Virus record (IMG/VR): IMGVR_UViG_3300018412_000010
DNA length: 64,000 bases
DNA from: a virus
Reading direction: 5' to 3' (one strand)
The notes beneath the pieces are model-generated. The model did not search any database and was not told the origin of the DNA. It worked only from the letters and a program-made list of their open reading frames with translations. Made by a program: the position numbers and the translations under genes. Positions 60,890-61,851 of the stretch are shown one piece after another; within the stretch, counting starts at the first letter, position 1; every line of letters begins with the position of its first letter.

Positions 60890-60991
60890 TTAATAGCAAT
60901 GACCTGTTCCGCCGCCACCACCATCGCCATAGCAATGACCCATACCATAAGTTCGGCTATATACAATTTTTCTTACAATCTTGGTAAACAT
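60890..60991 (-). CDS. 33-aa Gly-rich peptide with two GHCY motifs, candidate RiPP precursor (not in ORF track)
   Basis: MFTKIVRKIVYSRTYGMGHCYGDGGGGGTGHCY*; starts 2 nt after radical SAM stop, followed by terminator. Confidence 0.75.
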   Translation of the reverse strand: MFTKIVRKIVYSRTYGMGHCYGDGGGGGTGHCY

Positions 60992-60993
60992 AA

Positions 60994-61851
60994 TTATTTC
61001 CATCCCCTTTCCAATGACCCATCTTCATAGACAACGCCATATTTATTTGTAGATTTAATAAATGACTTACTTACTGCCTTAACACCATCCATAAATGATG
61101 CTTTTAAGGTTTCTTCGCACATAAAACAAGACCTTTTTAATAACACCGGTGTCTTAAACCCCGGAATTAGCTTATCCATATCAATATATGTCTGGCATCC
61201 ACCATAAAACGGTGAGCTTAATTTGATTCCAAAGGTCTTTTCGAAAGACACATAATATTCTTCACCATGTTGAATTTCCGACAGTTTGATGGAATTGAAT
61301 CCCATCTTATCATAATGTGTCAGACACTTTGCCAAATCTTCCCTTGTGTATAGGAATGGTTTAACAATATTAAGGTTGATTCGTATTTTTTCTTTGTATG
61401 GTAGTGCGTTATAGAATAACTGTCTATCATACTGGGACTTTACACACCTGATTTCATCCGCAATAGATTCATCGTAATGTTGGACAGAAAGATTGATTCC
61501 GTCTACGATTTTTAACAATTCAACAAATAAGTCGAATCTTTCCATGCATATTTTTGGAACAGATGTTGTAACAAACACCTTTAAATCCGTTTCACGTTTT
61601 ATAATGTTTATGCAGTCTATAAGTTCTTGCAGATAAAGACAAGGTTCGCCACCTAGAAACAATACATCATCATAACCATTTTGGTTATAGATTATCGTCT
61701 TTGCAATAGCTTTAATATCTGGTTTACAAACTCCAATTCCTTGGTATTTTGAATCTATGCAATGTGCACATTTATTGTCACACGCACTTGTAAAGTGAAC
61801 GTCAAAGGAATTATAGATTCCGTCGCAACAGTTCCGTTTAAAATTAAACAT
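60994..61851 (-). CDS. Radical SAM enzyme
   Basis: CDNKCAHC (CxxxCxxC), LGGEP, INLSVQH. Confidence 0.9.
   Translation of the reverse strand: MFNFKRNCCDGIYNSFDVHFTSACDNKCAHCIDSKYQGIGVCKPDIKAIAKTIIYNQNGYDDVLFLGGEPCLYLQELIDCINIIKRETDLKVFVTTSVPKICMERFDLFVELLKIVDGINLSVQHYDESIADEIRCVKSQYDRQLFYNALPYKEKIRINLNIVKPFLYTREDLAKCLTHYDKMGFNSIKLSEIQHGEEYYVSFEKTFGIKLSSPFYGGCQTYIDMDKLIPGFKTPVLLKRSCFMCEETLKASFMDGVKAVSKSFIKSTNKYGVVYEDGSLERGWK

What the first reader, a model, noticed from the sequence alone, without database searches (positions are those of the whole stretch)
60890..61851. Radical SAM enzyme plus hidden 33-aa GHCY-repeat peptide: candidate phage-encoded RiPP system
Seen: 2 nt after the radical SAM stop an unannotated ORF reads MFTKIVRKIVYSRTYGMGHCYGDGGGGGTGHCY*, followed by a terminator. 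It has a basic leader-like N-terminus and two identical GHCY cores (both GGT CAT TGC TAT) separated by a Gly linker. Established: radical SAM maturases sit beside their precursors and form thioether (sactipeptide/ranthipeptide) or three-residue aromatic cross-links. This enzyme is only 285 aa with no obvious SPASM domain, and no transporter or peptidase is adjacent. Inference: an intracellular modified peptide (His-Cys-Tyr cross-link or metal site) acting in host takeover or anti-defence.
Basis: partly seen in the sequence, partly recalled or inferred. Interest (0 to 1): 0.8.

Follow-up and report, generated by a model that had tools for sequence, protein, structure and literature searches.

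The report
Phage radical-SAM enzyme with Gly-His-Cys peptide
This phage carries a compact iron-sulfur "radical SAM" enzyme followed at once by a 33-residue peptide with two Gly-His-Cys motifs. The same pairing sits beside nearly every relative of the enzyme in other phages, so it is probably an undescribed virus-borne system that makes a chemically modified peptide.

Summary
On the minus strand a 285-aa radical SAM (rSAM) gene (60994..61851) ends in TAA. Two bases later a 33-codon ORF starts (60890..60991), with a basic helical N-terminal half and two identical GGT-CAT-TGC-TAT (GHCY) units. A hairpin terminator follows.

The peptide is real and conserved. All 40 IMG/VR (viral contig) loci whose enzyme is at least 58% identical have it, and 78 of 84 loci across the whole family have a same-strand partner ending in Cys motifs (controls 8 and 10 of 84). 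Core type follows enzyme clade: GHC x2 or x4, GCH, or Gly-x-Cys cores up to Lak megaphages. Several distant members carry the motif tail fused to the enzyme.

Nothing else is conserved nearby. The mazF-like gene that shares the operon here is specific to this phage.

The enzyme has no SPASM (C-terminal auxiliary Fe-S domain of peptide-modifying rSAM enzymes) and no RRE (RiPP leader-recognition domain). It has three extra invariant cysteines (C9, C219, C242), which suggests a three-Cys auxiliary cluster.

Best reading: an enzyme-substrate pair resembling a RiPP (ribosomally made, post-translationally modified peptide) that modifies cysteine. The chemistry and the biological role are inferred, not shown.

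The proposed His-Cys-Tyr cross-link is not supported as a family feature, because Tyr and His vary and only Cys is universal.

This scan found the same system before on other DNA. I found no paper describing it.

The parts
62527..62555 (-). Sigma-70-type promoter (TTGACA, 17 nt, TG-TATAAT; 12 of 12 matches) that heads the operon mazF-like, rSAM, peptide
61942..62475 (-). MazF/PemK-like endoribonuclease gene with a Cys-rich N-terminal extension of about 65 aa. It is the first gene of the operon in this phage only and is not part of the conserved unit.
   Evidence: PF02452, E 1.8e-35, residues 69-174; no MazF next to the rSAM in the 84 compared loci or the two nearest relatives
60994..61851 (-). 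Radical SAM enzyme, 285 aa, of a virus-restricted family without SPASM or RRE
61759..61782 (-). CxxxCxxC motif (C24, C28, C31) that binds the radical-SAM [4Fe-4S] cluster
   Evidence: invariant columns
61642..61653 (-). GGEP motif (G67-P70), the SAM-binding 'GGE' element
   Evidence: invariant
61825..61827 (-). Invariant Cys9 (N-x-C-D motif), candidate ligand of an auxiliary Fe-S cluster
61195..61197 (-). Invariant Cys219 (G-C, just before predicted strand 220-223), candidate auxiliary-cluster ligand
61126..61128 (-). Invariant Cys242 (R-S-C-F, just after predicted strand 236-239), candidate auxiliary-cluster ligand
60890..60991 (-). Precursor-like peptide gene, 33 codons plus stop, starting 2 nt after the rSAM stop. 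An alternative in-frame ATG at 61003 gives a 37-aa form.
60941..60991 (-). Leader-like half (residues 1-17): a basic, amphipathic M-[FYW]-T-K-x-[LV]-R-K type segment conserved across clades
   Evidence: T3 conserved in over 90%; the equivalent segment in the fused relative P0124 is a confident helix
60893..60940 (-). Core (residues 18-33): GHC motif 1 at 60932..60940, a linker of variable length and composition in relatives, and GHC motif 2 at 60896..60904, one residue before the stop
60853..60880 (-). Intrinsic terminator hairpin (12 bp, 4-nt loop, U-run) that closes the operon
60820..60848 (-). Perfect sigma-70-type promoter of the next transcription unit, which marks the downstream boundary

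Best explanation
The rSAM enzyme and the 33-aa peptide are an enzyme-substrate pair, a self-contained phage RiPP-like module.

Shown:
- The two genes are translationally coupled.
- They are co-inherited across the whole enzyme family.
- They co-diversify: the core motif type follows the enzyme clade.
- They occur both split and fused.

Inferred mechanism:
- The basic helical leader docks the peptide on the enzyme.
- The CxxxCxxC cluster cleaves SAM to a 5'-deoxyadenosyl radical.
- The three further invariant cysteines (C9, C219, C242) hold an auxiliary [4Fe-4S] cluster with one open iron site, as in MoaA and CteB. That site binds the thiolate of a core cysteine.
- The radical abstracts a hydrogen from a nearby core carbon, and a sulfur-to-carbon (thioether-type) bond forms, one event per G-x-C unit.
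- The flexible Gly-rich core thereby becomes a small cross-linked peptide.

No peptidase or exporter is present. The product therefore probably acts with its leader attached inside the infected cell, or is set free at lysis. Its likely field is phage-host or phage-phage conflict.

My odds: enzyme-substrate pair about 0.75; cysteine as the reacting residue about 0.6; a thioether specifically about 0.3; a conflict-related role about 0.5.
For: Coupling: the gap is 2 nt here and mostly -11 to +9 nt in 47 relatives.

Conservation:
- All 40 IMG/VR loci at 58% enzyme identity or more carry an HC-type peptide.
- 78 of 84 family loci carry a same-strand ORF ending in a Cys motif within 480 nt. Only 8 of 84 (upstream, same strand) and 10 of 84 (opposite strand) control regions do.
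- Lak megaphage homologues at 35% identity are followed by a longer ORF that ends in two GGC motifs.

Protein-level selection: the invariant G, H, C and T3 positions use 4, 2, 2 and 4 synonymous codons. Linker length varies from 3 to 14 residues, always in frame.

RiPP-like layout: the leader is conserved more widely than the core, and the core motifs are expanded to 4-7 copies in some clades.

Natural fusions: at least 13 cluster representatives at 25-47% identity end in GCH or GHC repeats.

Co-diversification: the tree needs 14 label changes, against a shuffled mean of 36.5 (0 of 200 shuffles as low). The window sits in a 37-row clade with SH-aLRT support 96% that holds only HC-type partners.

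Self-contained: no other gene family is present in more than 17 of 84 loci.

Enzyme:
- C9, C219 and C242 are invariant together with CxxxCxxC and GGEP down to 25% identity.
- The model is confident (pLDDT 94.9).
- C219 and C242 flank a predicted beta-hairpin that is followed by a helix, as in twitch-type auxiliary-cluster modules (the comparison rests on my knowledge of BtrN and MoaA).
- Structural neighbours include the peptide-modifying rSAM enzymes SuiB (Z 17.7), CteB (16.2), SkfB (15.1) and ChlB (14.9), and the three-Cys-cluster enzyme MoaA (17.0).
Against: No chemistry has been observed. There is no mass-spectrometry, expression or binding evidence.

By sequence profile the catalytic core is closest to viperin-like nucleotide dehydratases (E 2e-17; pVip 38.8 bits). 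The fold search does not separate peptide-modifying from small-molecule rSAM enzymes: viperin scores Z 17.3, GDGT-MAS 17.1 and PFL-AE 16.3.

The enzyme lacks the SPASM and RRE domains that known thioether-forming maturases have.

I could not check whether C9, C219 and C242 lie together in space, because model coordinates are not returned.

Fusion to the enzyme, and two His-Cys pairs (a classical metal-ligand set), fit a cofactor-binding tail as well as a substrate.

A few family members show no partner in the DNA read (L058, L078, L083, L084).
Confidence: 0.55

Rival explanations
1. Same enzyme-substrate pair, but the chemistry is not a thioether. The rSAM enzyme would convert the cysteines in another way, for example oxidation to formylglycine as anSME does, or heterocycle or thiooxazole formation and C-terminal processing as reported for some rSAM RiPP enzymes. 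Alternatively it would epimerise or otherwise alter the Gly or His next to Cys.
For: The last motif always lies 0-3 residues from the C-terminus, which hints at C-terminal chemistry. Gly before Cys, at position -1 or -2, is nearly universal. The epimerase EpeE/YydG (E 3.5e-8) and anSME (Z 14.3) are among the neighbours. Gly/Cys-rich cores in the 41-47% identity clade resemble heterocycle-bearing microcin-type precursors in composition (the comparison is from my own knowledge).
Against: None of these enzymes is a closer relative than the thioether-forming ones. anSME and the thiooxazole enzymes carry SPASM domains, which are absent here. Sequence alone cannot choose between chemistries.
Confidence: 0.2
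2. The peptide is not a substrate. It is a small accessory subunit or tail whose Cys and His side chains bind a metal or Fe-S cluster, or deliver electrons or sulfur, for an rSAM enzyme whose real substrate is a small molecule such as a nucleotide, as in viperin and MoaA.
For: By profile the core is most similar to viperin-like enzymes. MoaA is a top structural neighbour (Z 17.0). Two His-Cys pairs form a classical 2Cys-2His ligand set (my own knowledge). Stable fusion of the tail to the enzyme in many distant members is what one expects of a functional tail.
Against: The motif number varies from 2 to 7, spacing varies from 3 to 14 residues, and His is lost altogether in large clades. A fixed ligand set would not tolerate this. 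The leader-plus-variable-core layout and tandem duplicated peptide genes (L008) are typical of substrates. Viperin family models score far below their cut-offs (33.1 against 180), and the C-terminal 95 residues do not align to viperin. Fused precursor-enzyme RiPPs are known (borosins; my own knowledge).
Confidence: 0.15
3. The peptide is a consumable partner. It would be either a sacrificial sulfur donor (Cys to dehydroalanine) for a thiolation reaction, or a miniature glycyl or thiyl radical carrier activated by the enzyme in the way PFL-AE and NrdG activate their partners.
For: Public annotation pipelines name relatives 'organic radical activating enzyme' or 'pyruvate-formate lyase-activating enzyme'. 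PFL-AE is a structural neighbour (Z 16.3). The core is rich in Gly and Cys.
Against: Activase models score far below their cut-offs (PFL-AE 16.2 against 231.75; NrdG 20.3 against 131.15). The peptide has no glycyl-radical motif or fold, and a 33-aa disordered peptide could not shield a radical. No thiolation target or partner gene is conserved nearby.
Confidence: 0.05
4. The small ORF is a chance reading frame and the region is only the 3' untranslated end and terminator of the rSAM gene.
For: The ORF is short and has no database family. No RNA or ribosome data could be obtained.
Against: The frame, the leader motif and the GHC motifs are conserved across enzyme identities from 100% down to about 35%. 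Synonymous codon changes and in-frame length changes are seen. Controls are 8 and 10 of 84 against 78 of 84. Fused forms exist.
Confidence: 0.01

Closest known systems
Sactipeptide and ranthipeptide systems (CteB with CteA 'SCIFF', SkfB with SkfA, AlbA with SboA, PapB with PapA)
   Same: An rSAM enzyme is encoded next to a short Cys-bearing precursor with a leader and a core. These enzymes use an auxiliary cluster with an open iron site that binds the substrate cysteine (my knowledge of the CteB structure). CteB and SkfB are structural neighbours (Z 16.2 and 15.1).
   Different: Here there is no SPASM or full twitch domain and no RRE. The enzyme has 285 aa, against about 410-450. It has only three extra cysteines, one of them N-terminal. 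The core is (G-x-C)n at the extreme C-terminus. The family is virus-restricted. No peptidase or exporter is present. A thioether has not been shown.
HXS anti-phage system (HxsB/HxsC rSAM enzymes maturing the HxS-repeat effector HxsA; Nat Commun 2026, PMC13128918)
   Same: rSAM enzymes mature a ribosomal product that carries short His-containing tripeptide repeats, and the product acts in phage-host conflict (abstract).
   Different: HXS is bacterial, has four genes, and its effector has a peptidoglycan-binding domain and is exported. Here the module has two genes, is phage-borne and has no export signal. The motif is G-H-C rather than H-x-S. HxsC models score far below their cut-off (19.5 against 267.9).
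Viperin and prokaryotic viperins (pVips)
   Same: They have the most similar rSAM core by sequence profile (E 2e-17 over positions 15-189), a similar size and a single-domain build (Z 17.3).
   Different: Viperins act on nucleotide triphosphates and have no peptide partner. The family models are not met (33.1 bits against 180; 18.7 against 450). The C-terminal third, which holds C219 and C242, is unrelated.
MoaA (molybdenum cofactor biosynthesis)
   Same: It is a compact rSAM enzyme with a second [4Fe-4S] cluster held by three cysteines, whose free iron binds the substrate (my own knowledge). It is a structural neighbour over residues 9-285 (Z 17.0).
   Different: Its substrate is GTP. The positions of its cluster cysteines differ. 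It has no peptide partner. Sequence similarity is weak (E 1.7e-6, core only).
Borosins (OphMA-type self-modifying precursor-enzyme fusions)
   Same: The core peptide is fused to the C-terminus of its own modifying enzyme. Split and fused forms coexist in one family, as they do here.
   Different: Borosins are fungal or bacterial N-methyltransferases, not rSAM enzymes. The parallel is in architecture only.

Membership tests
Radical SAM superfamily (PF04055) | CxxxCxxC cluster motif and the GGE SAM-binding motif in a partial TIM barrel | tested here: met
   PF04055 E 1.4e-10, 42.1 bits against a cut-off of 29.5. C24, C28, C31 and G67-G68-E69-P70 are invariant. The confident model matches rSAM structures at Z 14-18.
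SPASM/twitch peptide maturases (sactipeptide and ranthipeptide synthases) | C-terminal SPASM domain (seven-Cys motif, two auxiliary clusters) or a full twitch domain | tested here: not met
   No SPASM or twitch family appears at E up to 0.1 in Pfam or NCBIfam. TIGR04053 (rSAM/SPASM) scores 21.4 bits against 395. Only three conserved extra cysteines exist.
SPASM/twitch peptide maturases (sactipeptide and ranthipeptide synthases) | N-terminal RRE (PqqD-like) leader-recognition domain | tested here: not met
   No Pfam hit. Only 14 residues precede the first core strand in the model.
SPASM/twitch peptide maturases (sactipeptide and ranthipeptide synthases) | Adjacent Cys-containing precursor with leader and core | tested here: met
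SPASM/twitch peptide maturases (sactipeptide and ranthipeptide synthases) | Product carries sulfur-to-carbon thioether bridges | not testable with these tools
   This needs mass spectrometry or NMR of the co-expressed peptide.
RiPP system (general definition) | Ribosomal precursor with a recognition (leader) part and a variable core, encoded with its modifying enzyme | tested here: met
   The leader motif is conserved across clades while the core linker is hypervariable. The pair is co-inherited.
RiPP system (general definition) | The peptide is post-translationally modified by the enzyme | not testable with these tools
No experiment was possible.
Viperin / pVip (NF038283, TIGR04278) | Score above the family cut-off over the full length, including the nucleotide-binding C-terminal extension | tested here: not met
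   33.1 bits against 180 and 18.7 against 450. The PDB profile match covers only positions 15-189.
Glycyl-radical enzyme activases (PFL-AE TIGR02493, NrdG TIGR02495) | Family-level score and a glycyl-radical enzyme partner | tested here: not met
   16.2 bits against 231.75 and 20.3 against 131.15. No glycyl-radical partner is conserved nearby.
His-Xaa-Ser (HXS) system | HxsB/HxsC-type rSAM pair, and HxsA with H-x-S repeats | tested here: not met
   HxsC scores 19.5 bits against 267.9. There is one rSAM gene only, and the peptide motif is G-H-C.

The most novel reading that the evidence does not exclude
A virus-restricted family of minimal rSAM maturases, with no SPASM, no RRE and a three-Cys auxiliary site, installs a so far undescribed cysteine-centred modification on (Gly-x-Cys)n peptides. 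The substrate is encoded in trans or fused in cis. Phages from about 55 kb up to the 550-kb Lak megaphages would use the product as a small effector in conflict with the host or with rival phages, for example as an anti-defence or superinfection-exclusion agent. It would be the phage-side counterpart of the bacterial HXS defence.
Probability: 0.4. Interest if true: 0.85.

Novelty: new variant of a known kind. Interest (0 to 1): 0.78.

Why it matters
rSAM-made RiPPs are known from bacteria. They almost always depend on SPASM or twitch and RRE domains, and on dedicated peptidases and exporters. Here the whole system is two genes of under 1 kb.

The family is large: 956 clusters at 90% identity and 323 at 50%. 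It has been seen only in phages and in phage-like contigs binned into MAGs. It has no curated family and no paper that I could find.

If the pair works as proposed, three things follow:
- It would define a minimal architecture for leader-dependent radical peptide chemistry, useful for enzymology and peptide engineering.
- It would add a new modification class centred on Gly-x-Cys motifs.
- It would show that phages themselves make modified peptides. That opens a directly testable question about their role in infection, next to the recently described bacterial HXS defence that uses an rSAM-matured repeat protein.

The module is small enough to test by simple co-expression.

Tried and rejected
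- AlphaFold2 of a natural fusion (P0124, alignment A4). The enzyme part was confident, and the leader-like segment formed a long helix (residues 292-329, block pLDDT 79-96). The Cys/His core (332-346) had pLDDT under 50, so no docking pose was obtained. This says nothing either way.
- Model coordinates are not returned, so the spatial clustering of C9, C219 and C242 could not be measured.
- Expression. No RNA holder is listed. The one run labelled RNA-Seq is probably DNA, and its contigs cover only parts of the mazF-like gene and the 5' end of the rSAM gene.
- Search for longer fused forms (500-2000 aa): none found, which is weak evidence.
- Literature. Five full-text searches for phage rSAM RiPPs, His-Cys cross-links and jumbo-phage rSAM peptides found no description of this system. 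The thymidine-hypermodification rSAM paper (PMC8989533) concerns an unrelated, SPL-like enzyme.
- The apparent fusion in L012/L031 is rejected as evidence. It differs from L004 by one extra A in a poly-A run, so it is a frameshift or a sequencing error.
- MazF linkage is rejected as a family feature. No MazF lies next to the rSAM gene in the 84 loci or in the two nearest relatives.
The scan with A2 found only MAG contigs and no isolate genome.
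Full report
**What is in the sequence**

The genes lie on the minus strand. A 285-aa ORF (60994..61851) carries CxxxCxxC at C24/C28/C31 and ends in TAA. Two bases later an ATG (60991) opens a 33-codon ORF that ends at 60890. The peptide (window:60893-60991:-) has a basic, amphipathic first half and a core with two GHCY units. Both units are encoded by the same 12 bases and are separated by a Gly-rich linker. 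An in-frame ATG four codons upstream (61003) would add four residues.

The tripeptide GHC occurs only 4 times in about 128,000 six-frame positions of the window, and two of these lie in this ORF. A 12-bp hairpin with a U-run follows at about 60880..60853.

**Transcription unit and setting**

Perfect sigma-70-type promoters lie at 62555..62527 and 60848..60820. The transcription unit is therefore promoter, mazF-like gene (61942..62475; PF02452), rSAM gene, peptide gene, terminator.

The window is phage DNA: it encodes a portal protein, a large terminase, an exonuclease and PhoH. Near-identical DNA occurs in freshwater metagenomes, and partly in a wastewater metagenome.

**Is the peptide real?**

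The enzyme family is large. It has 956 clusters at 90% identity and 323 representatives at 50% identity.

I fetched 15 close and 72 wider IMG/VR loci, 12 loci from MAGs (metagenome-assembled genomes), Lak megaphage loci and several metagenome contigs. The findings were:

- Every one of the 40 IMG/VR loci with an enzyme at 58% identity or more has a small ORF on the same strand with an M-[FYW]-T-[KR] type leader and GHC motifs at the C-terminus.
- The ORF mostly starts -11 to +9 nt from the enzyme's stop.
- In an alignment of 26 such peptides, M1, H19, C20, G30, H31 and C32 are invariant, and T3 and G18 are nearly so.
- The conserved Gly, His, Cys and Thr positions use 4, 2, 2 and 4 different codons.
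- The stretch between the motifs varies from 3 to 14 residues and is always in frame.
- The residue after the last Cys varies: Y 10, S 7, D 2, G 2, others 5.

This is selection on a protein. It also shows that Tyr is not a conserved part of the motif.

With a loose automatic criterion, 78 of 84 loci have a partner ORF ending in a Cys motif within 480 nt. Control regions score 8 of 84 (upstream, same strand) and 10 of 84 (opposite strand).

Gene callers have sometimes seen the ORF. The 37-aa form is in JGI/IMG without a name, and the 31- and 32-aa orthologues are called in the two nearest relatives.

**The wider family**

The partner changes with the enzyme clade:

- two GHC motifs, as in this window;
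- four (G/S)HC motifs;
- GCH...GCH at the very end;
- mixed HC/CH cores;
- in the 41-47% identity clade, precursors of 95-110 aa with a long leader and 5-7 Gly-x-Cys or Gly-Cys-Gly units ending in a C-terminal Cys.

Lak-B1 and Lak-C1 (35% identity) are followed by a longer ORF that ends in two GGC motifs.

On a quick maximum-likelihood tree of 75 enzymes, the core types need 14 changes, against 36.5 for shuffled labels (0 of 200 shuffles as low). The window lies in a 37-row clade with SH-aLRT (branch support) 96% that holds only HC-type partners. Relatedness alone contributes to this clustering.

At least 13 cluster representatives at 25-47% identity are natural fusions whose C-terminal tails carry GCH or GHC repeats. 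One apparent fusion (L012) is only an extra A in a poly-A run and is discarded.

The only universal core residue is Cys, usually with Gly one or two positions before it. The last motif sits 0-3 residues from the C-terminus.

**Nothing else is conserved**

All-against-all clustering of the ORFs of 84 loci shows no other family in more than 17 loci. There is no peptidase, no transporter and no second maturase. The mazF-like gene is specific to this phage.

One clade has NadR-like and PnuC genes just upstream of the rSAM gene. This window has an NMNAT-like gene 1.2 kb downstream. This is a weak hint that the module sits among auxiliary or counter-defence genes.

In 185,579 species genomes the family appears only on MAG contigs, mostly binned with Clostridia, and never in an isolate genome. 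The ESM Atlas clusters nearest to the enzyme are 100% viral.

**The enzyme**

Pfam finds only the rSAM core. NCBIfam hits are all far below their cut-offs:

| Family model | Score (bits) | Cut-off (bits) |
|---|---|---|
| viperin (NF038283) | 33.1 | 180 |
| TIGR04100 | 33.4 | 262 |
| HxsC | 19.5 | 267.9 |
| PFL-AE | 16.2 | 231.75 |

There is no SPASM, twitch or RRE model hit.

Across 45 and 36 sequences down to 25% identity, the invariant positions are C9, the CxxxCxxC motif, GGEP, S122, E192, G218-C219 and C242. The enzyme therefore has three further essential cysteines.

The AlphaFold2 model is confident (pLDDT 94.9). It places C219 just before and C242 just after a beta-hairpin that is followed by a helix. 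From my knowledge of BtrN and MoaA, this resembles the layout of twitch-type auxiliary-cluster modules. I could not measure distances between the three cysteines.

Fold searches give a plateau of rSAM enzymes and no single best family:

| Structural neighbour | Z score |
|---|---|
| SuiB | 17.7 |
| viperin | 17.3 |
| GDGT-MAS | 17.1 |
| MoaA | 17.0 |
| PFL-AE | 16.3 |
| CteB | 16.2 |
| SkfB | 15.1 |

A profile search of PDB sequences puts viperin-like enzymes first, over the core only (E 2e-17). SuiB, YydG, MoaA, CteB and SkfB follow.

**How it most likely works**

Four observations point to an enzyme and its substrate: co-inheritance, translational coupling, a leader conserved beyond the core, repeat expansion in the core, and split and fused forms.

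I propose the following. The leader helix docks on the enzyme. A core cysteine binds the open iron of a three-Cys auxiliary cluster. The 5'-deoxyadenosyl radical abstracts a hydrogen from a nearby core carbon, and a sulfur-to-carbon bridge forms, once per motif. All of these steps are inferred.

Other Cys-directed chemistries are nearly as likely. A metal-binding or cofactor-tail reading is kept at about 0.15. The main argument against it is the free variation in motif number, spacing and His content.

The role is unknown. The module lies in a moron-like position, it is spread across unrelated phages, and the bacterial HXS defence uses rSAM-matured HxS-repeat effectors (PMC13128918). For these reasons a role in phage-host or phage-phage conflict is the best guess.

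**Novelty**

No paper in the searchable library describes the system. No curated family covers the enzyme or the peptide.

This scan found the same system before on other DNA: e1-3506680, e1-4111224, e1-5468698, e1-5468706, e1-5495750 and e1-5495762. I reached the same reading independently. This report adds:

- the operon boundaries in this window;
- codon-level evidence of selection;
- the census with controls;
- the many fused GCH-tail forms;
- the three invariant extra cysteines across fused and split clades;
- the viperin-nearest core;
- the finding that the MazF neighbour is not part of the unit.

It is a new variant of a known kind, rSAM-dependent peptide maturation, built on a new and minimal enzyme family.

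Noticed in passing
window 61942-62475 (-): The MazF/PemK-like toxin has a Cys-rich N-terminal extension of about 65 aa. The extension contains a CxxxCxxC-like spacing and two Gly-x-Cys units (G-S-C and G-N-C), the same kind of unit as the rSAM partner peptides. No antitoxin gene is adjacent. It is co-transcribed with the rSAM gene and the peptide gene. Whether the extension is a metal site, a cis-antitoxin or a second rSAM substrate is open.
   Followed up: partly
window 58141-58497, 58508-58813, 58826-59176, 62564-62902, 63210-63539, 63552-63848 (all -): Six small proteins of about 98-118 aa flank the cassette. All end in a similar C-terminal motif (...Y-x-V-[EDNT]-L-[IV]). They look like a paralogous family of unknown function expanded in this early or moron region.
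   Followed up: no
window 59190-59771 (-); L053 801-2520: An NMNAT-like cytidylyltransferase lies 1.2 kb downstream of the cassette. In the 41-47% identity clade a NadR-like protein (NMNAT plus AAA_28 kinase) and a PnuC NMN transporter lie immediately upstream of the rSAM gene. NAD-salvage genes are thus near the module in two separate clades.
   Followed up: partly
window 62527-62555 and 60820-60848 (-): Two perfect extended -10 sigma-70 consensus promoters (TTGACA, 17 nt, TG-n-TATAAT) head successive short operons. The phage seems to rely on strong host-type promoters in this region.
   Followed up: no
L008 3864-4060 (same contig as L027): Two peptide genes lie in tandem after one rSAM gene. 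One has a 3-residue stretch between the motifs and the other a Pro/Lys/Asp-rich one. This is a duplicated precursor with a diverged core.
   Followed up: no
L080 2501-2941; L012 2992-3948: Two decay or error forms were seen. In L080 the first ~126 residues of the rSAM gene run in frame into the peptide, an internal deletion. In L012 one extra A in a poly-A run fuses the enzyme and peptide frames.
   Followed up: partly
window 10414-13555 (-): The large-terminase ORF matches separate PHROG families with its N-terminal part (residues 21-216) and its C-terminal part (residues 352-627). It overlaps the end of an HNH-endonuclease-like ORF (12392-13555). This may be a mobile-element or split arrangement around the terminase.
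   Followed up: no
window 60928: A wastewater population of this phage (run X5, one low-depth contig) reads T instead of C here. The change turns Gly22 of the linker into Ser. It is a non-synonymous change in the hypervariable part of the core.
   Followed up: no
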